Source: Haliotis cracherodii (Eukaryota). From it: a stretch of DNA of 64,000 bases. The stretch covers positions 63,612,001-63,676,000 of the forward strand of contig NW_027266286.1 of NCBI RefSeq assembly GCF_022045235.1. The letters run 5' to 3'. Numbering within the stretch: the stretch's first letter is position 1; every line of letters starts with the position of its first letter. The notes under the pieces were generated by a model. It saw nothing but the letters and a program-made list of their open reading frames with translations, ran no database searches and was not told the DNA's origin. Shown here piece after piece: positions 4,060-55,105 of the stretch. Made by a program: the position numbers and the translations under genes.

Positions 4060-5255
4060 GACGTGTACCTCACACAATACACACACGTAGTATGCCTCAC
4101 ACAATACATACACGTAGTATGTCTTACATAATATACACATGTAGTATGTCTTACACAATATAAACATGTATGCTTCACACAATATACACAAGTAGGATGC
4201 GTCACACAATACACACACGTAGTATGTCTTACATTATATACACATGTAGTATGTCTTACACAATATACACATGTATGCCTAACTCAGTATACACATGTAG
4301 TATGCCTCACACAATACACACACGTAGTATGTCTTACATAATATACACATGTAGTATGTCTTACACAATATACACATGTATGCCTAACTCAATATACACA
4401 TGTAGTATGCCTCACACAATACAAACACGTAGTATGTCTTACATAATATACACATGTAGTATGTCTTACACAATATACACATGTATGCCTCACAAATATA
4501 CACATGTAGTATGCCTCACACAATAAACTAATTTAGTATGCGACACAATATACACATGTAGAATGCCTCACATAATATACACATGTAGTTTGCCTCACAC
4601 AATATACACATGTTGTATGTCTTACATAATATACACATGTTGTATGTCTTACACTATATACATGTACACATAAATGCCTCACACAATATACACACGTAGT
4701 ATGTCTTACATAATATACACATGTTATATATCTTACCCAATATATACATGTAGTATTTCTTACATAATATACACATGTAGTAAGCCTCACGTAATATACA
4801 CATGTAATATGCCTCACACAATATACACATGTAATATGCCTCACACAATATACACATGTAGTATGCCTCACACAATATACACAGGTAGTATGTCTTACAT
4901 AATATACACATGTAGTATGCCTCACACAAGATACTCATGTAGTATGCCTCACATAATATACACATGTAGTATGTCTTACACAATATACATATGTAGTATG
5001 TCTTACACAATATACACATGTAGTATCTTTTACATAATATACACATGTAATATGCCTCACACAATATACACATGTAGTATGCCTCACACAATATGCACAT
5101 ATAGTATGCCTCACACAAGATACACATGTAATATGCCTCACACAATATACACATGTTGTATGCCTCACACAAGATACACTTGTAGTATGCGTCACACAAT
5201 ATACACATGTAGGATGCCTCAAACAATTTACATATGACTTATGCTTCAGACAATA
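4060..5255. repeat. 27-bp minisatellite (ACACAATATACACATGTAGTATGCCTC)n
   Basis: CATGT recurs at 4801, 4828 and 4855; about 40 or more units. Confidence 0.95.
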
Positions 5256-5878
5256 CACAGAGAGTGTATGTGTTAATGTTATTCCGCTTTCTGCTTAATA
5301 CCCCATGCAACAGCCGTGTAGTAATTTTACATAAGTTCACCGCTATCTTTGTACCGCCGGATCCTTCAACATATAATTCGTGTCAAATGACGTTCGACTT
5401 TAAAATCGGCTTTTGCCTAAACCTTATGTATATCATACATAGCCATTACATATGTAGAATTTGATATGGTGAAAAAGGCAAATTGGAACAATTTCAATTT
5501 TTGGAACGGCACCAACTATTGGCTCAGGTGACTGGATAATAAACAACTTAAATGTACATATATTACAACTCGTAGCAGGGGACCAGCTCGCTTAGCAGAG
5601 GTACCACTGTACACGACCAACCCACACAACAACACAAGACCTGAGTAACAAATAAACAGTGAGTTTATCAGTCGGTCACAGAGTCATTTATATCATCAGT
5701 CAACAATAGAATGCTTACAAACAATTATTAGAGAATGTTTACAATTGATTATTGATATACAGATGTACTAAGAACATCAGATGAGTATGATATAGAAGGA
5801 TTGACCATGATTGATACATGGGATGTGATCATTATTATACAAAGTATAAAAGTTTCCATATAGTTGACTATAGTATAC

Positions 5879-5991: not shown

Positions 5992-6470
5992 CACGCTCCA
6001 TATAGTTGACTATAGTATACCTGGGGGCCGTTATACAAAACAAACTTAGCGCTACGACTGTCGTAAGTCTATGTTAAGGTTTGGAAGTTACGATCACCTT
6101 AGCACTAAGATCGCTTTGCGCAACGGCACCCAGCACGCTCCAACTGATCCATTACCCGACTGGGTATTCACACAAGATACCTATGTTAGTCATGATTCCA
6201 AGGTAAACAACGTAATAAAGTTAATCCAGTTCCAGTTACCACAAGAACGTGCGGGTATTGCCCAGGGTAATAGCATACAGCAAGACGTAACAGATAACAA
6301 AACAGAAACGTGTTTTACTGATTGTCTGGTTTGTCTTCACTTCAGGCAGTCGTTGAATGGCAGGAGTTCTGCTGTGCGGCGTCAGACAATATTATACCTA
6401 ATGCCTTTTTGTACAAATTGTGTGAATCTAATATAATTTTCACGGCTACGTTTCCCTTTACACTAAATGG

Positions 6471-6750
6471 GGGGCACGGGTGCCGCAGTTGTCTAAGGCG
6501 CCGCGACTCGCTGTGCAGAGTTGCGTCCCTTGGGCACGCCAGAAACCTATGATTGTGGGTTCGGATTCCCGATTCGCCCAGATTATGTTTCTGGGTTTGT
6601 CAGCACCATGCCCGTGCTAGTGGGTTTCACCGAAGTGGTAAACGCCCGAGACCTGCTTCACTTTGGGCTTTCCTCCCACCTTAAGCTGACACGCCGCGAT
6701 AAAACTGGACTAATGTTAAAAGCGGCGTTAAACCCAACGCACGCAGTCAC
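6471..6750 (+). mobile_element. SINE family C (tRNA-Leu-like head, V-domain-like body), full length with TSD
   Basis: GTCTAAGGCGCC...GTGGGTTCG head; GTGGGTTTC...GGGCTTTCCTCCCAC V-domain-like body; shared tail; near-TSD TTTACACTAAATGG (6457-6470) / TTTACACCAAATGG (6751-6764). Confidence 0.85.
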
Positions 6751-7392
6751 TTTACACCAAATGGAACCTGTTTCGGCGGATAAACTAAACTGGGTATTCT
6801 CTTGCATTGCTATTCTATATTTGTATTTACCTGAGTGAAGAAACAGAGGTTATTAGTCAGCCGCAGAGTGATGTGTGGCTGTGTGTCGTCTGTATTTATA
6901 ATACCTATTCTAGCTACTACAGATAATCTTATTTTCTGAGTAAAATGGCGATAAATGTGTTAATGCGAAGTTTAGTGACGCTGTGTCGACAATTACATAA
7001 TTTAGTTTGGCGAAGGCATTGAGGATAACGGTGTTTAAGAGAAAAGTTTAATATGAAGAAGAATAACTGTATGTCACCGTCTGTATACGTGGTACAGGTG
7101 ATTTGATAAGGGTGGCTGACAAACAGAGCCGAAGATACAGATAAAGGTATTAACGCCTGAAATGTGATTGCCTAACTATGTCTGACAGCACAATAAGAGA
7201 TGCTGGTCCTAGATGATGTCCGATGCGGGTCAAATCAATTTGAAGCTTGGCAGGTTTAAGATTTGGTCAGTTATTTCGAAATATTCCAATTTTCAATTCT
7301 TAATATGTCACATGTGACGTGACAGCATATTTATAAAAGTTAATACAGACATGTTATATCACTGAGAAACAGATGTATTAGTTCGGTATTGA

Positions 7393-32748: not shown

Positions 32749-33149
32749 AATTGCTGGAGTGACATTTGCACAGTGTTTTAGGTAATGCTTAAAAAATAGC
32801 ATGTCACCACTCCGGGGTCTTCCCTGTTGGCTCAAAACTGAAATTCGGGAGGGTTAAGGGGATTAGGGCTGGGGGATTATACATGTTGTCTGTTTCCTTA
32901 GAAGCTGAAGTTGAAGTTGAATTTTGAGTGAACACTAATCACCCAGAACAGTTTTGATTTTTAATCAAGTTGTGTTGTTGTTCCCGACTTTTCCTGTATG
33001 TTCCCGTGTGTCCTGAGAGTGCCACGAGTTTCAGTTAATGTATCTGAAATCTATTATCAATTTTGTACATTAAAAAAATATATAAATTATATAAACATAC
33101 CGTTTTATTGTTTTTCATCTGAACTATGTCTGGTGTTTTCATTGGGCAG

Positions 33150-33435
33150 GGGGGACACGGGTGGCCCAGTCGTTTAAGGCGCCGCGATTCGCTGTTCAGA
33201 GTTGCGTCCCTTGGGCATGCCAGAAACCTATGATTGTGGGTTCGAATCCAGGTTGGCCCTGATTATGTTTCTAGGTTTGTCAGCACCATACCCGTGCTCG
33301 TGGGTTTCACCGTACTGGTAAACGTCTGACACCTGCATCACTTCGGGCTTTCCTCCCACATTAAGTTCACACGCTCTGATATAACTTGAATACTGTTAAA
33401 AGCGGCGTTAAACCCAACTCACTCATTCACTCACT
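33150..33435 (+). mobile_element. SINE family C, full length
   Basis: A box TGGCCCAGTCG (33162), B box GGTTCGAATCC (33239), V-like body, tail and (ACTC)n. Confidence 0.9.
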
Positions 33436-34680: not shown

Positions 34681-34870
34681 AATGTAACTGTGAAAATACC
34701 AAGTTATTCCCTGATTGCGTATAAACTGACAATGGCTTGTTACTACATGTGTTTCTGGTCAGACATCACATGGTGTCTTTGAAATGCAGTAGAATATGGT
34801 CTTCTTTAACACGATAATGAGTTAAGAGGGTATAACTACATGGTCCCGAAAAATCCTTCTCGGCATTCGA

Positions 34871-35034
34871 GCAGTCGGGTAGCCTAGTGGTTAAAGCGTT
34901 CGCTCGTCACGCCGAAGACTCGGGTTCGATTCCCGACATGGGTACAATGTGTGAAGCCAATTTCTGGTGTCCCCCGCCGTGATATTGCTGGAATATTGCT
35001 AAAAGCGGCGTAAAACCATACTCACTCACTCACT
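34871..35034 (+). mobile_element. SINE family A (tRNA-derived, ~165 bp), full length; 5' part of a composite insertion
   Basis: A box TAGCCTAGTGG, B box GGTTCGATTCC, tail GATATTGCTGGAATATTGCTAAAAGCGGCGTAAAACC plus (ACTC)n. Confidence 0.9.
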
Positions 35035-35906
35035 ATGACTATGACCTATCTACTTCTCAGCAATCTCTGGGATATTCTAGCCAAGGACAACTATTTCCGT
35101 TTCTGATGCTTCTTCATATCTTCAGTCCAAATGGCATTTCTAGGATTAAAATGTAATCTGCTCATTTTACACGGTTCAATGCATTGCACATTGTATTGTA
35201 TGTCATTTGCATGGTCATTGACATGTGACAGACTACACAATGTGGATTTGGAGCTAGTAAAACCAAACTCACTCACTCTCGGCATTCGAACTACGGATAT
35301 TTCGATAGATGATCGATGGCCACTAGGACTTCGAGATTATAACGAGGTTTCACTGAAATGTAATACAATCAAGATACCGACACGAACATCCGTTCGTGTA
35401 CTCCAATCAAGAGATGTAAAGGCATAGTATACTACATAAGTCGTCCGTTATCGTATGTGGTTATGCATCTAGCTAATGTGAAACACAATGCCTCAACTTA
35501 GGAGGCCAGTTATAATCCTCTTATTTGATCAAAAAGCGTGTGAATACAGAGTAATCTACTTTCCATGCGACATCTGCCCATTCGAAAAACCTCAGGATAA
35601 GATTTCAACAAAGCAGAGTAAACAAAGTCCATTTTTAGCACAATAACAGCTATCCTCGAATATCCTCATAAGGTCATATGGGAAGCACATTTACTTGGGG
35701 CTACGTTTTTGAGACCCGCTCTGGTGCTCAAGTCAGATTGTTTTTGAAACATCAGTTCGACCTGTAAATATTCGAATCTGGACCAGATAATCCTGTGAGT
35801 TATATTATGATAAACGACTTCCTACTATTCAGCCACGTCACTGAGTCTGACCACCCGATCCATCAGGTGACCACCAAGTGTTTCGGGACTTTTTCGTCGC
35901 TGAAAT

Positions 35907-36680: not shown

Positions 36681-37834
36681 TACTCAAGGGTTGTCCGTGT
36701 ATGTAAAAGATGTTTAAGAACACCCGATTCTTCCATATGCGCTACAGTTAGACTGCCATGCCGATGACAGATTAACTATAGTACTATGAAAGAATCAGTG
36801 TTCTTTAACTTCTTTTGAGTAGTATATGTAAATGTTCCTAACTGCCGACTGTGGTTCATTAAAAGGCATTTACTGTCAGCAACATCTACACATCATGTGT
36901 ACATCTGGATCTGAACCTGATAAACGTAAAGACTTTCATTCAACTCCAGTATGAGATATCCAACAAATGTGTCCATGAACTCCCCCCAAAACATATCGAT
37001 CGAACGCATCCCCTTTTTGAGAAAACGCGCGAACTCGCGTTAGAAGGCGTTAGCGTCTAATTACGTGGTGTGTTTGGAGTAAAAACACCTCAGATTTTCT
37101 GTATGTGCCTCACTCACAATTCCTGTGTCCACGACCGAAGCACGTTCCAGTGGCGCTATGACTCAAGCTTGTTTGGATAAGCAGTGTCGTCTTATCCAAT
37201 CCCAAGACCATTAAGGTGCATATTTACTATGTGTCGCATCATTACATTGGAAAATGTTATTTTTTCTCATAAAAGTATGCGTTAATTGAATCAAAATGCA
37301 CGCAAACTTTGATCGAACGTTTGTATTTTTTCAAATTAATGAATGTGCAAACAAATACTGCACAGTGTGGCTCACGGAGAAGTAACCTTTTACACTGACG
37401 GTTTTTTATATTTATTTAACACGTGTGAGGAGGACTTACGTAATTCCGGTGTATTCTGGATGATTCTGGCGACGAACACGTGTTACCCTGGTATATTCAT
37501 TCATGTGGGTGTACATGTCCACGTTTAGTACATCGTGAATAGTGAGCTTGTACATGCAGCGAAACCCCTCTTGACCGAAAACTCCTCCCTTCCGACGATA
37601 ACCATAGAGAACGTCTACATATCTACCTATTCATAAGCAGTAAATCCTGAAACGTAGAAATTCGGACGTTTCACCTATATACTACTACTTCTTATAATAC
37701 TAATAATAATCATAACAATGATTATAATTATAGTAATAATGATAACACCCTCACACGAAGAATCTTGTCAGACAATAGATACCACCACCTCGCTCTTCCC
37801 TCAATCCGTAACTGATGTTCAGTGTGTAGGTGAC

Positions 37835-38480
37835 CCTGCCGAGTTCTTCGCTTGGAGGAAGTCAATTGACCTTAAAAGTGAAACAGAAGGCTTTCTGTTT
37901 GCTGCTCATGAGGACCAGTCACTTCCCACTCGAAACCGTCAAAATGTGAATATCAAATGTAGAATATGCAATGAATTTAATGCGACTGTCCAACACATTG
38001 TCAGTGGATGCCCAGCTTTGGTACAAACACAGTATCATAAGCGACATGATGGAGTGGCTCGATCCTTTTATTACCGTCTTCGCCATTCTTGTTGTATTGA
38101 CACAGAGGTCCATCCGTGGTACGACACCAGAATATGTTGAGGACACCACGGAATATGATAATAGGCCTGTTTACAGCCTCGAACATATCCAGGCCAACAA
38201 ACCTGATCTTGTCCTTTTTTTAAATCCAATGAAATCAATTATATTATTGAATTTTCTGTCCCTTTCTACACTAATGTGATCGACAAGATTCAGGAAAAAC
38301 ATGGCAAATACGAGGACCATTGTTCTCGGTGCCTTAGGTTTGGTACCTCCAAATCTGTTGACTGACATTGGGAGAGTACCCGGGTTTGCTGCCAGGAAGA
38401 CAGCCCTTCTGACAATCTGGGTAATGTAGAAGGCTGCAATGTTGGGGAGTCTTCACATTCTCCGAAAGGCTCTGCTTAGG
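37835..38480 (+). pseudogene. Decayed 3' part of a restriction-like-endonuclease non-LTR retrotransposon (R4/Dong-like)
   Basis: Translates across frameshifts to LKSETEGFLFAA..DQSL, CCHC knuckle CRICNEFNATVQHIVSGC, RHD motif (KRHDGVA), ANKPDLV endonuclease core, IVLGALGLVP and KAAMLGSLHILRKAL. Confidence 0.85.
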
Positions 38481-49914: not shown

Positions 49915-52900
49915 TATGAAAGAAAGCAGAGAGAGCGTGAATAAGAGAACGAAGAGAGTGTGAATGAGAGAATGTAGAGTGTGATTGAGAGAATGTAGAG
50001 AGTGTGAATAAGAGAATGAAGAGAGTGTGGATGAGAGAATGAAGGGAGGCTGTGATTGAGAGAATGTAGAGAGCGTGAATGAGAGAATGTAGAGTGTGAA
50101 TGAGAGAATGTAGAGTGTGAATGAGAGAATGTAGAGAGTGTGAATAAGAGAATGAAGAGAGTGTGGATGAGAGAATGAAGGGAGGCTGTGATTGAGAGAA
50201 TGTAGAGAGCGTGAATGAGAGAATGTAGAGTGTGAATGAGAGAATGTAGAGAGTGTGATTGAGAGAATGTAGAGAGTGTGAATGAGAGAATGTAGAGAGT
50301 GTGAATAAGAGAATGTAGAGAGTGTGATTGAGAGAATGTAGAGAGCGTGAATGAGAGAATGTAGAGTGTGAATAAGAGAATGTAGAGAGTGTGATTGAGA
50401 GAATGTAGAGAGCGTGAATGAGAGAATGTAGAGAGCGTGAATGAGAGAATGTAGAGAGCGTGAATGAGAGAATGTAGAGTGTGAATAAGAGAATGTAGAG
50501 AGTGTGATTGAGAGAATGTAGAGAGTGTGAATAAGAGAATGAAGAGAGTGTGGATGAGAGAATGAAGGGAGGCTGTGATTGAGAGAATGTAGAGAGCGTG
50601 AATGAGAGAATGTAGAGTGTGAATGAGAGAATGTAGAGAGCGTGAATGAGAGAATGTAGAGTGTGAATGAGAGAATGTAGAGAGTGTGAATGAAAGAATG
50701 TAGAGAGTGTGAATGAGAGAATGTAGAGAGTGTGAATGAGAGAATGTAGAGAGCGTGAATGAGAGAATGTAGAGAGTGTGTATGAGAGAATGTAGAGAGT
50801 GTGAATGAGAGAATGTAGAGAGTGTGAATGAGAGAATGTAGAGAGTGTGAATGAGAGAATGAAGAGAGTGTGAATGAGAGAATGTAGAGTGTGATTGAGA
50901 GAATGTAGAGAGTGTGAATAAGAGAATGAAGAGAGTGTGGATGAGAGAATGAAGGGAGGCTGTGATTGAGAGAATGTAGAGAGCGTGAATGAGAGAATGT
51001 AGAGTGTGAATGAAAGAATGTAGAGTGTGAATGAGAGAATGTAGAGAGTGTGAATATGAGAATGAAGAGAGTGTGGATGAGAGAATGAAGGGAGGCTGTG
51101 ATTGAGAGAATGTAAAGAGCGTGAATGAGAGAATGTAGAGTGTGAATGAGAGAATGTAGAGAGTGTGATTGAGAGAATGTAGAGAGTGTGAATGAGAGAA
51201 TGTAGAGAGTGTGAATAAGAGAATGTAGAGAGTGTGATTGAGAGAATGTAGAGAGCGTGAATGAGAGAATGTAGAGTGTGCATAAGAGAATGTAGAGAGT
51301 GTGATTGAGAGAATGTAGAGAGCGTGAATGAGAGAATGTAGAGAGCGTGAATGAGAGAATGTAGAGAGCGTGAATGAGAGAATGTAGAGTGTGAATAAGA
51401 GAATGTAGAGAGTGTGATTGAGAGAATGTAGAGAGTGTGAATAAAAGAATGAAGAGAGTGTGGATGAGAGAATGAAGGGAGGCTGTGATTGAGAGAATGT
51501 AGAGAGCGTGAATGAGAGAATGTAGAGTGTGAATGAGAGAATGTAGAGAGCGTGAATGAGAGAATGTAGAGTGTGAATGAGAGAATGTAGAGTGTGAATG
51601 AAAGAATGTAGAGAGCGTGAATGAGAGAATGTAGAGAGTGTGAATGAGAGAATGTAGAGAGCGTGAATGAGAGAATGTAGAGAGTGTGAATGAGAGAATG
51701 TAGAGAGTGTGAATGAGAGAATGTAGAGAGTGTGAATGAGAGAATGTAGAGAGCGTGAATGAGAGAATGAAGAGAGTGTGAATGAGAGAATGTAGAGTGT
51801 GATTGAGAGAATGTAGAGAGTGTGAATAAGAGAATGAAGAGAGTGTGGATGAGAGAATGAAGGGAGGCTGTGATTGAGAGAATGTAGAGAGCGTGAATGA
51901 GAGAATGTAGAGTGTGAATGAGAGAATGTAGAGAGTGTGAATAAGAGAATGTAGAGAGTGTGAATAAGAGAATGTAGAGAGTGTGATTGAGAGAATGTAG
52001 AGAGCGTGAATGAGAGAATGTAGAGTGTGAATAAGAGAATGAAGAGAGTGTGATTGAGAGAATGTAGAGAGCGTGAATGACAGAATGTAGAGAGCGTGAA
52101 TGAGAGAATGTAGAGAGTGTGAATGAGAGAATGTAGAGAGTGTGAATGAGAGAATGTAGAGAGTGTGAATGAGAGAATGTAGAGAGTGTGAATGAGAGAA
52201 TGAAGAGAGTGTGAATGAGAGAATGTAGAGAGTGTGAATGAGAGAATGTAGAGAGTGTGAATGAGAGAATGTAGAGAGTGTGAATGAGAGAATGTAGAGA
52301 GTGTGAATAAGAGAATGAAGAGAGTGTGAATGAGAGAATGTAGAGAGCGTGAATGAGAGAATGTAGAGAGTGTGAATGAGAGAATGTAGAGAGTGTGAAT
52401 GAGAGAATGTAGAGAGTGTGAATGAGAGAATGTAGAGAGCGTGAATGAGAGAATGTAGAGAGGGTGTGAATGAGAGAATGTAGAGAGTGTGAATGAGAGA
52501 ATGTAGAGAGCTTGAATGAGAGAATGTAGAGTGTGAATGAGAGAATGTAGAGAGCGTGAATGAGAGAATGTAGAGAGTGTGAATGAGAGAATGTAGAGAG
52601 TGTGAATAAGAGAATGTAGAGAGTGTGAATGAGAGAATGTAGCGAGTGTGAATGAGAGAATGTAGAGAGTGTGAATGAGAGAATGTAGAGGGTGTGAATG
52701 TGAGAATGAAGAGAGCGTGTGAATGAGAGAATGTACAGAGAGTGTGAATGAAAGAATGAAGTGAATGAGAGAATGTAGAGAGTGTGAATGAGAGAATGTA
52801 GAGAGTGTGAAGGAAAGAATGTAGAGAGTGTGAATGAGAGAATGTACAGAAAGTGTGATTGGAAGAATGTAGATTGAGCGTGAATGAGAGAATGTAGAGT

Positions 52901-55105
52901 GTGAATGGGAGGATGTACAGAGAGTGTGAATGAGAGATTGAGAGATTGTGAATGTGAGAATGAAGAGAGAGTGTGGATGAGAGAATGTAGAGAGTGTGGA
53001 TGAGAGAATGTACAGAAAGTGTGATTGGAAGAATGTAGATTGAGCGTGAATGAGAGAATGCAGAGTGTGAATGGGAGGATGTACAGAGAGTGTAAATGAG
53101 AGATTGAGAGAGTGTGAATGTGAGAATGAAGAGAGAGTGTGAATGAGAGAATGTAGAGAGAGTGTGAATGAGAGTGTGAATGAAAGAATGTACAGAAAGT
53201 GTGATTGGAAGAATGTAGATTGAGCGTGAATGAGAGAATGTAGAGTGTGAATGGGAGAATGTACAGAGAGTGTGAATGTGAGAATGAAGAAAGAGTGTGA
53301 ATGAGAGAATGTAGAGAGTGTGAATGAAAGAATGTACAGAAAGTGTGATTGGAAGAATGTAGATTGAGCGTGAATGAGAGAATGCAGAGTGTGAATGGGA
53401 GGATGTACAGAGAGTGTGAATGAGAGATTGAGAGAGTGTGAATGTGAGAATGAAGAGAGAGTGTGAATGAGAGAATGTAGAGAGAGTGTGAATGAGAGAA
53501 TGTAGAGAGTGTGAATGAAAGAATGTACAGAAAGTGTGATTGGAAGAATGTAGATTGAGCGTGAATGAGAGAATGTAGAGTGTGAATCGGAGAATGTACA
53601 GAGAGTGTGAATGTGAGAATGAAGAAAGAGTGTGAAAGAGAGAATGTAGAGAGTGTGAATGAAAGAATGTACAGAAAGTGTGATTGGAAGAATGTAGATT
53701 GAACGTGAATGAGAGAATGTAGAGTGTGAATGAGAGAATGTAGAGAGTGTTTGAATTAAAGAATGTTGAGAGAGCGTGAATGAAAGAATGTAGATAGAGT
53801 GTTTGAATTAAAGAATGTAGAGAGAGTGTGAATGAGAGAATGTAGAGAGTGTGAATGAAAGAATGTACAGAAAGTGTGATTGGAAGAATGTAGATTGAGC
53901 GTGAATGAGAGAATGTAGAGTGTGAATGGCAGAATGTACAGAGAGTGTGAATGTGAGAATGAAGAAATAGTGTGAATGAGAGAATGTAGAGAGGGTGTGA
54001 ATGAGAGAATGTAGGGAGTGTGAATGAAAGAATGTACAGAAAGTGTGATTGGAAGAATGTAGATTGAGCGTGAATGAGAGAATGTAGAGTGTGAATGAGA
54101 GAATGTAGAGAGAGTGTGAATGTGAGAATGAAGAAAGAGTGTGAATGAGAGAATGTAGAGAGAGTGTGAATGAGAGAATGTAGAGAGTGTGAATGAGAGA
54201 ATGTAGAGAGAGTGTGAATGAGAGAATGTAGAGAGTGTGAATGAAAGAATGTACAGAAAGTGTGATTGGAAGAATGTAGATTGAACGTGAATGAGAGAAT
54301 GCAGAGTGTGTGAATTAAAGAATGTACAGAAAGTGTGATTGGAAGAATGTAGATTGAACGTGAATGAGAGAATGTAGAGAGTGTGAATGAAAGAATGTAC
54401 AGAAAGTGTGATTGGAAGAATGTAGATTGAGCGTGAATGAGAGAATGTAGAGTGTGAATGGGAGAATGTACAGAGAGTGTGAATGTGAGAATGAAGAAAG
54501 AGTGTGAATGAGAGAATGTAGAGAGTGTGAATGAAAGAATGTACAGAAAGTGTGATTGGAAGAATGTAGATTGAGCGTGAATGAGAGAATGCAGAGTGTG
54601 AATGGGAGGATGTACAGAGAGTGTAAATGAGAGATTGAGAGAGTGTTAATGTGAGAATGTAGAGAGAGTGTGAAAGAGAGAATGTAGAGAGAGTGTGAAT
54701 GAGAGAATGTAGAGAGTGTGAATGAAAGAATGTACAGAAAGTGTGATTGGAAGAATGTAGATTGAACGTGAATGAGAGAATGTAGAGTGTGAATGGGAGA
54801 ATGTACAGAGAGTGTGAATGTGAGAATGAAGAAAGAGTGTGAATGTGAGAATGAAGAAAGAGTGTGAATGTGAGAATGTAGAGAGAGTGTGAATGAGAGA
54901 ATGTAGAGAGTGTGAATGAAAGAATGTACAGAAAGTGTGATTGGAAGAATGTAGATTGAACGTGAATGAGAGAATGTAGAGTGTGAATGAGAGAATGTAG
55001 AGAGTGTTTGAATTAAAGAATGTTGAGAGAGCGTGAATGAAAGAATGTAGATAGAGTGTTTGAATTAAAGAATGTAGAGAGAGTGTGAATGAGAGAATGT
55101 AGAGG
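49915..55105. repeat. ~5.2-kb purine-rich 21/23-bp minisatellite (GAGAGAATGTAGAGAGTGTGAAT)n with domain-specific higher-order variants
   Basis: Read directly; lies between the two first exons. Confidence 0.97.

What the first reader, a model, noticed from the sequence alone, without database searches (positions are those of the whole stretch)
34858..35289. Composite SINE insertion: full SINE + ~225 bp of nearby sequence + second SINE tail inside one 13-bp TSD
Seen: TCTCGGCATTCGA occurs at 34858-34870 and 35277-35289. Between them lie a complete family A SINE (34871-35034), a segment (35033-35258) nearly identical (about 5 substitutions plus a small 5' indel) to 26986-27215, 8 kb upstream in the same orientation, and then a second minimal SINE tail GTAAAACCAAACTCACTCAC. 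Inference: one target-primed reverse transcription event began on a SINE tail, jumped to a local template (nascent transcript or DNA of this locus), then jumped to the 3' end of another SINE RNA and copied it in full. This differs from simple 3' transduction because the 26986 donor is not preceded by a same-strand family A SINE and lacks the tail. It would be a SINE-mediated route for duplicating local sequence.
Basis: partly seen in the sequence, partly recalled or inferred. Interest (0 to 1): 0.72.

Follow-up and report, generated by a model that had tools for sequence, protein, structure and literature searches.

The report
Neighbouring SINEs template local repair duplications
A 225-base stretch was copied from 8 kb away into a short mobile element, likely when a break in that element was repaired from a similar element next to the donor stretch; the genome holds several more such local copies, including mirror-image ones, that look like retrotransposon cargo but likely are not.

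Summary
The structure is real: one 13-bp TSD around a SINE, a 225-bp copy (X) of 26986-27215 and a 22-nt tail stub. X has two hits in the genome and other individuals span the junction. The double template jump is not supported. In two sister species the donor carries an (ACTC)n SINE-type tail exactly at the SINE/X junction, and one has the empty acceptor. A survey found eight more cases: five of this type, two mirror forms (head stub, segment, full SINE), one complex. All 7 mapped donors, the window's included, lie on the same contig, 2 kb to 1.24 Mb away; 5 of 7 have a SINE at the matching end. One donor SINE lacks its 5' 50 nt while the copy is full length; one mirror copy holds DNA upstream of its donor SINE. 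A SINE transcript cannot supply either. Best reading: a break in an existing SINE, one end invading a nearby SINE, synthesis into its flank, microhomology joining. This is a homology-primed variant of repair-mediated duplication (Pace 2009) that mimics SINE transduction.

The parts
34858..34870 (+). Left copy of the 13-bp target-site duplication of the acceptor SINE insertion
   Evidence: run X7 (organism B) shows left flank, one copy of the 13-mer and right flank, i.e. the empty allele
34871..35034 (+). Near full-length tRNA-headed SINE (consensus 4-166). Inferred hybrid: body from the acceptor's own SINE, 3' end with ATAC-type tail (35010-35034) copied from the donor's SINE
   Evidence: hybrid origin inferred
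35033..35258 (+). Captured segment X, copy of 26986-27215; overlaps of 2 nt at both ends (CT, GT); first 10-15 nt rearranged
35257..35278 (+). Tail stub (AAAC variant, unlike the ATAC tail at 35010); inferred to be the right end of the original acceptor SINE
   Evidence: probable plain-SINE allele with this tail in run X2, record 11
35277..35289 (+). Right copy of the 13-bp target-site duplication
26986..27215 (+). Donor of X, 8,047 bp upstream, same strand. No SINE before it here or in run X5; preceded by an (ACTC)n SINE-type tail in organisms B and C; no tail after it in any of the four runs laid

Best explanation
The composite is likely a DNA-repair product: an existing SINE at 34871 broke near its 3' end, the long left end likely invaded a same-family SINE that then sat just before the donor at 26986, copied that SINE's tail and 225 bp of flank, and was joined to the 22-nt right stub through a 2-nt overlap. 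Shown: the anatomy; the empty acceptor in organism B; a SINE-type tail at the donor junction in organisms B and C; the same anatomy and its mirror image at other loci, with every mapped donor nearby. Inferred: the break; the order (plain SINE first, capture later); that the B/C tail belongs to this SINE family; that the SINE-bearing donor allele was polymorphic in the ancestor of organism A and was later lost or became rare; the pathway (one-sided invasion or SDSA finished by end joining, from established knowledge).
For: (1) Donor junction: X7 and X11 each have one contig over X that runs on into the donor's right flank and is preceded by ACTC repeats at the composite's junction base. (2) Locality: 7 of 7 mapped donors are on the acceptor's contig, at 2.0, 4.3, 8.0, 11.8, 36.6, 119 and 1,242 kb. 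For the 5 clean cases mapped by genome-wide search, the chance of all lying within 1.25 Mb is about 4e-14. Ordinary copies show no local kinship: 14 of 109 same-locus pairs share a non-CpG variant, against 10.3% of 23,973 pairs from different loci. (3) A SINE sits at the homologous end of the donor in 5 of 7 in this assembly (L135, L223, L388, L383, L137). (4) L240 is full length but its donor L388 is only consensus 51-164, without the A box; they share A137C, C158T and C162G (each in at most 4 of about 220 other copies) and no variant in 51-136. (5) Mirror form, predicted before testing: L319 = TSD, head 1-33, 231 bp of DNA upstream of donor SINE L383, full SINE, TSD; it shares C34G with L383 (5 of 222 other copies). 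Rates are alike: 3 tail-side cases in 78 short-tail breakpoints, 2 mirrors in 38 head breakpoints. (6) 0 of 5 X ends checked fall at a T4 run in the donor (nearest 101-434 nt further on) and 4 of 7 X copies contain T4. (7) Stub and first tail differ (AAAC, ATAC). Run X2 has a 51-nt contig with 7 non-X letters, stub, TSD and right flank, converging with the composite contig on the same right-flank contig: the plain-SINE allele that the model predicts.
Against: Only 14 nt of the B/C tail are visible and the contigs end 27-34 nt into it, so its family is not shown. The 7 letters of X2 record 11 were not printed, and that allele could be a later deletion between the two tails. The acceptor state in organism C is unknown. 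Donor L265 (of L029) has no SINE in this assembly. L303 and L290 have no second copy found. The mirror test rests on 1 mapped case of 2, and its segment is itself part of a repeat (best other hit 97% at 11.8 kb, next 94%). L388 could have lost its 5' end after the event. Shared variants in L048/L135 and L190/L223 are one each, no more than random pairs give (631 of 2016 share at least one). Sequence cannot tell a later break from a switch during the integration of the acceptor SINE itself.
Confidence: 0.7

Rival explanations
1. Capture during retrotransposition: the acceptor SINE's integration intermediate (nascent cDNA or second strand) switched once onto a neighbouring SINE locus, as DNA or as a tethered read-through RNA, so that insertion and capture were one event.
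For: One TSD encloses everything; the copy starts at the SINE 5' end; the stub begins at the 3' foot of a predicted stem (centroid structure, though the whole fold is not better than shuffles, z 0.44). L1 templated insertions are known, mostly under 250 bp and within 15 bp of the site (bioRxiv 2024.08.27.596794, passages).
Against: The RNA version fails on L240 (donor lacks the 5' end), L319 and L097 (upstream flank copied) and on the T4 runs. The probable plain-SINE allele in X2 argues for two steps. The stub position was chosen by my patterns; stubs of about 22, 24, 29, 50 and 75 nt were found, so no hot spot is shown.
Confidence: 0.18
2. Classical repair-mediated duplication without SINE homology: a staggered break duplicated the 22-nt tail and X was captured by microhomology at both ends.
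For: The donor has no SINE in this assembly or X5; L265 has none either; Pace 2009 lists microhomology plus 4-21 nt duplications.
Against: The B/C tail lies at the same junction base; the two tails differ; 5 of 7 donors have a SINE at the matching end.
Confidence: 0.05
3. One reading: one reverse transcription with two jumps (SINE tail, SINE-free local template, second SINE RNA).
For: Tripartite chimeras within one TSD exist (PMC2104539); all parts share one orientation; L029/L265 would fit.
Against: SINE-type tail and X are adjacent at the donor in B and C; mirror forms and donor-shared 3' variants are not predicted.
Confidence: 0.04
4. Ordinary 3' transduction from a source allele that carried SINE, X and a second tail.
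For: The SINE-X adjacency existed at the donor.
Against: No tail follows X at the donor in 4 of 4 runs laid or at L135, L223, L265, L388, L137; a free RNA would not land within 1.25 Mb in 7 of 7 cases; mirror forms are unexplained.
Confidence: 0.03

Closest known systems
[quoted passage not shown] 2009, PMC2671141; parts 1-3 of 8 and passages read)
   Same: A single-copy segment of about 50-600 bp from the same chromosome inserted into a transposable element, microhomology at the joint, no poly(A), attributed to SDSA.
   Different: Here one end appears primed by up to 140 nt of homology to a paralogous SINE, so part of the SINE is duplicated. Their pipeline dropped fragments over 95% of consensus, which excludes this form. 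Donors here reach 8 kb to 1.24 Mb, beyond their 5-kb set; their species were vertebrates.
One-sided invasion; homologous repair finished by end joining (Belmaaza and Chartrand 1994, seen only as a reference entry in PMC4888836; Richardson and Jasin 2000 and Tremblay et al. 2000 recalled, not held)
   Same: One broken end copies an ectopic repeat past the homology and is joined without homology.
   Different: Those are, as recalled, induced breaks in cultured cells; here natural germline products between dispersed SINEs, in both polarities.
3' transduction by L1, SVA and, in theory, Alu (Halabian et al., bioRxiv 2024.04.29.591526; parts 1-2 of 3 read)
   Same: Element plus downstream flank inside one TSD, with a traceable source element.
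   Different: They confirmed none in 118,489 AluY copies and require a T4 terminator after the segment. Here X ends are not at terminators, copies stay local, mirror forms exist and a donor can lack its 5' end.
Tripartite template-switch chimeras (Gogvadze et al. 2007, PMC2104539, part 1 of 5 read); Alu/L1 chimeras (PMC13174262, passages)
   Same: Full-length 5' part, truncated 3' part, same orientation, one TSD.
   Different: Their parts are separate RNAs; here the 5' and middle parts are genomic neighbours at a nearby donor.

Membership tests
Repair-mediated duplication (Pace 2009) | Insert of 50 bp or more inside a transposable element with one other copy in the genome | tested here: met
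   2 hits for X in G000
Repair-mediated duplication (Pace 2009) | Donor on the same chromosome within 5 kb | tested here: not met
   Same contig but 8.0 kb; 2 of 7 mapped donors are within 5 kb
Repair-mediated duplication (Pace 2009) | Microhomology, filler or deletion at the joint; no poly(A) | tested here: met
   2-nt overlap at the X/stub joint; 0-4 nt in the other cases
Repair-mediated duplication (Pace 2009) | Element split into two colinear fragments, neither over 95% of consensus | tested here: not met
   Left part is consensus 4-166 of 166, stub repeats 143-164
Repair-mediated duplication (Pace 2009) | Pre-event allele with the uninterrupted element | tested here: inconclusive
   X2 record 11 fits a plain-SINE allele but its 7 unmatched letters are not shown and it could be a reversion
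3' transduction by a Pol III SINE | Source element directly upstream of the carried flank | tested here: met
   SINE-type tail at the donor junction in organisms B and C (family inferred); full or partial SINE at L135, L223, L388, L137; none at L265
3' transduction by a Pol III SINE | Carried flank ends at a T4 terminator and holds none inside | tested here: not met
   0 of 5 ends at T4; T4 inside 4 of 7 copies
3' transduction by a Pol III SINE | Whole element of the copy derives from the source | tested here: not met
   L240 full length, donor L388 only 51-164; not testable for the window's own locus
3' transduction by a Pol III SINE | Copies dispersed without regard to source position | tested here: not met
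   7 of 7 mapped donors within 1.25 Mb on the same contig
Tripartite template-switch chimera (Gogvadze 2007) | One TSD, same orientation, full 5' part and truncated 3' part | tested here: met
Tripartite template-switch chimera (Gogvadze 2007) | The three parts come from separate templates | tested here: not met
   Tail and X are adjacent at the donor in organisms B and C
Tripartite template-switch chimera (Gogvadze 2007) | Middle part is a copy of a cellular RNA | not testable with these tools
   Needs RNA data from this organism
tRNA-derived SINE | tRNA-like head with A and B boxes, short tandem-repeat tail, TSDs, many copies | tested here: met
   Rfam tRNA hit; box-like motifs at consensus 13 and 56; 118 of 325 long copies with own TSD in 1.45 Mb
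tRNA-derived SINE | Named family and partner LINE | tested here: inconclusive
   No RT-like frame recognised upstream of 95 tail-module hits (read by eye, no profile scan); not compared with the consensus sequences of PMC4758252 or PMC4824008 (passages only)

The most novel reading that the evidence does not exclude
The capture is made during SINE integration itself: the retrotransposition intermediate searches out a neighbouring SINE, up to a megabase away, and copies its flank on either side, so that an active SINE family duplicates local DNA at hundreds of sites per genome by a route that is neither transduction nor classical template jumping.
Probability: 0.18. Interest if true: 0.68.

Novelty: new variant of a known kind. 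Interest (0 to 1): 0.47.

Why it matters
A SINE with flank inside one TSD and a traceable source is the standard sign of 3' transduction. These loci show that sign and yet have features that an RNA cannot give, so claims of SINE transduction need a check for locality, for mirror forms and for where copy and source share variants. The form would be missed by the published screen for repair-mediated duplications, which drops near full-length fragments. It also gives a natural record of how far a broken repeat reaches for a partner (2 kb to 1.2 Mb here). One off-centre case in 168 tails suggests, very roughly, hundreds to a few thousand events in this genome (inference, wide interval). No function of the copied segment is shown.

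Tried and rejected
High-copy repeat: rejected, 2 hits. Misassembly: rejected. Coding role of X: only short chance-sized frames, no protein search made. RNA: no RNA holder listed; this says nothing on expression. The first read lay was swamped by SINE contigs; joints there are unusable. My first reading after one search was read-through RNA plus one jump; dropped. General local hopping of the family: not seen (14 of 109 against 10.3%). Kinship of the composite SINE with the truncated copy at 26732-26843 through C92A: within that background; C92A is not clearly linked to the AAAC tail (3 of 8 against 36 of 221, p 0.14). A frequency printed for position 30 was the wrong column; the right one (34) is. 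Candidates dropped: L084 (middle part high copy); L011, L028, L045, L075, L093, L109, L285, L330, L379 (tandem duplications of their own flank); L287 (insertion inside the SINE); L032 and L053-55 (array of tail units). Tail-only and head-only loci without a TSD were not mapped. Partner LINE not found. Ten literature searches brought no description of this SINE-homology-primed form; the library lacks most subscription papers, two recalled papers were not held and no supplements were read, so absence from print is not shown.

Full report
Observation. The window (G000 contig C23; 1.18 Gb in 80 contigs) holds the structure as described. The 13-mer lies at 34858 and 35277 only. Between are a SINE of a 166-nt tRNA-headed family (consensus from 64 copies; Rfam tRNA), a segment X that matches 26986-27215 with 5 substitutions in 215 ungapped bases and a rearranged start, and a 22-nt tail stub. 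X has two hits in the genome. An earlier scan note calls this genome an abalone; I did not test that. The family's published name and partner LINE were not established.

Other individuals and species. Of 17 runs listed I laid 6. Contigs of four runs of organism A from two studies span the X/stub/right-flank junction (X1, X6; X2, X5). On the repeat-free stretch 35036-35750, run X7 (organism B) has left flank, one 13-mer and right flank: the empty allele. In X7 and X11 (organism C) one contig covers X, runs on into the donor's right flank, and is preceded by ACTC repeats at exactly the base where the composite's SINE meets X; the contigs stop 34 and 27 nt into the repeats, of which 14 nt are printed. 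In X5 and in this assembly the donor has plain flank there. No run shows a tail after X at the donor. So SINE-type tail and X were neighbours at the donor, and the second jump is not needed. Of the five substitutions, two are private to the composite, two it shares with B and C, one with B only, which puts the copy at about 1% divergence. In X2 a 51-nt contig with 7 non-X letters, the stub, the TSD and right flank meets the composite contig at the same right-flank contig; I read it as a plain-SINE allele, but the letters are not shown and it may be a reversion.

Survey, tail side. Patterns for an intact tail without its normal upstream bases gave 243, 215 and 26 matches (subsets in 21, 22, 52). 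I examined 242 loci, 1.45 Mb, picked partly by eye for contexts unlike a decayed SINE; dropped were an array of tail units and refetched places. They held 247 central tails (78 short) and 168 off-centre tails. Of the 78, 18 had an enclosing TSD; most are internally deleted SINEs, three are sandwiches: L048 (X 73 nt, TSD 13; a later insertion splits its first tail), L190 (107 nt, TSD 13), L240 (78 nt, TSD 14 with one mismatch). L029 (about 265 nt, TSD 12 with one mismatch) was found off centre, L290 (35 nt, TSD 13) among the head loci. L097 is a complex form without TSD that holds an inverted SINE end plus X and a direct copy of the donor SINE with 134 nt of upstream flank. Donors: L135, 119 kb, opposite strand, full SINE before X; L223, 1.24 Mb, same strand, full SINE with its own TSD; L388, 4.3 kb, opposite strand, SINE 51-164 only; L265, 36.6 kb, opposite strand, no SINE; L137, 2.0 kb, full SINE. 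L290 has no second copy found. None of these donors has a tail after X.

What the survey says about the template. All mapped donors are on the same contig, whereas ordinary copies show no local kinship, so a freely diffusing RNA is unlikely. No X ends at a T4 run (0 of 5) and 4 of 7 contain one. L240 is full length though its donor lacks the first 50 nt with the A box, and the two share three rare variants only at positions 137-162: a recombinant of the acceptor's 5' part and the donor's 3' part, unless the donor was cut later.

Mirror test. A break near the 5' end of a SINE, repaired the same way from the long right end, should give head stub, DNA upstream of a nearby SINE, full SINE, all in one TSD; a SINE transcript holds no upstream DNA. 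I wrote this prediction down and then searched four head breakpoints: 25 of 25, 30 of 55, 28 of 45 and 30 of 32 matches examined, 113 loci. 75 were decayed whole copies, 21 internal deletions, 17 head-only. Two are mirrors. L319: TSD of 11 nt (read by eye), head 1-33, 231 bp, full SINE; the 231 bp belong to a repeat, but the best other hit (97%; next 94%) lies 11.8 kb away and is directly followed by a SINE with its own TSD that shares C34G with the copy. L303: TSD 12, head 1-33, 131 bp with no second copy found. Two in 38 breakpoints is close to 3 in 78 on the tail side. The numbers are small.

Mechanism. Shown: anatomy, empty allele, donor adjacency in B and C, recurrence, locality, one recombinant copy, one mapped mirror. 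Inferred: a SINE inserted normally and made the TSD; a break near one end left a long arm and a stub too short to anneal; the long arm invaded a nearby paralogue, was extended through it into its flank, came off and was joined to the stub by 0-4 nt of microhomology. The many tandem duplications with the same breakpoints would be the sister-chromatid version (inference). For this locus the SINE-bearing donor allele must have been present in the ancestor of organism A and since lost or become rare; it was not seen in this assembly or X5, and X2 is ambiguous (its donor contig starts at the junction base). The main open rival is capture during integration of the acceptor SINE, which gives the same sequence but no plain-SINE ancestor.

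Against the reading. The B/C tail is seen only in part; organism C's acceptor is unknown; L265 has no SINE; two of nine cases have no donor; shared variants in L048/L135 and L190/L223 are no more than random pairs show.

Known relatives. Closest is repair-mediated duplication (Pace 2009, PMC2671141; parts 1-3 of 8 and passages): same local capture into an element, but their screen required two colinear fragments under 95% of consensus and kept donors within 5 kb, so this form works like it and fails two of its criteria. One-sided invasion is the established pathway (seen as a reference entry in PMC4888836; otherwise recalled). Alu transductions were not confirmed in primates (bioRxiv 2024.04.29.591526, parts 1-2 of 3). 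Tripartite chimeras (PMC2104539, part 1 of 5), Alu/L1 chimeras (PMC13174262, passages) and L1 templated insertions (bioRxiv 2024.08.27.596794, passages) share the look but not the donor adjacency or the reach. PMC4758252 and PMC4824008 (passages) and PMC9132208 (abstract) gave background only. Ten searches found no account of this form; supplements and subscription papers were not seen.

Verdict. Real, recurrent, and most likely a repair product primed by homology between neighbouring SINEs: a new variant of a known kind. Interest 0.47.

Noticed in passing
window 26732-26843 (-): A 5'-truncated copy of the same SINE family with a 17-bp TSD, inserted into another repeat 143 bp before the donor; it shares C92A with the composite's SINE and the AAAC tail with the stub, within chance.
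   Followed up: yes
L025, L035, L049, L074, L091, L098, L267, L268, L276, L280, L286 (locus centres): Many TSD-flanked SINEs with internal deletions that join the head to a later part or straight to the tail; could be end-joined breaks or RT skips.
   Followed up: partly
L011, L045, L093, L028, L285, L330: Tandem duplications of a SINE end plus its own flank, with a breakpoint inside the SINE; the likely sister-chromatid counterpart of the sandwiches.
   Followed up: partly
L097 4999-5679: Complex local copy: inverted SINE end plus 292 bp of flank capped by a tail stub, joined to a direct copy of 134 bp upstream flank and the SINE, from 2 kb away; no TSD.
   Followed up: partly
L032, L053-L055 (G000 C3 about 8.432 Mb) and G000 C12 13.310-13.312 Mb: Tandem arrays built from the SINE's 3' end: units of about 63 bp on C3, and four tail matches spaced 673 bp on C12 (not fetched).
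   Followed up: no
window 6469-6751, 33148-33435: A second repeat family appears to share the last 60 nt (consensus 105-166) and the ACTC tail with the SINE studied; 42 of 95 tail-module hits have the same 20-mer before the module, suggesting one partner LINE.
   Followed up: partly
window 49930-55104, 14380-16037, 4068-5259: Long minisatellites: 23-bp units over 5.2 kb and 1.6 kb, 27-bp units over 1.2 kb.
   Followed up: no
window 37658-38276 (+): Overlapping frames of 160 and 109 aa whose text recalls the C-terminal cysteine-histidine region of a non-LTR retrotransposon (recalled, no search made).
   Followed up: no
L048 about 993-1420: A 430-bp element with TA at both ends sits inside the first SINE tail of this sandwich, so it arrived after the capture (donor L135 lacks it).
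   Followed up: partly
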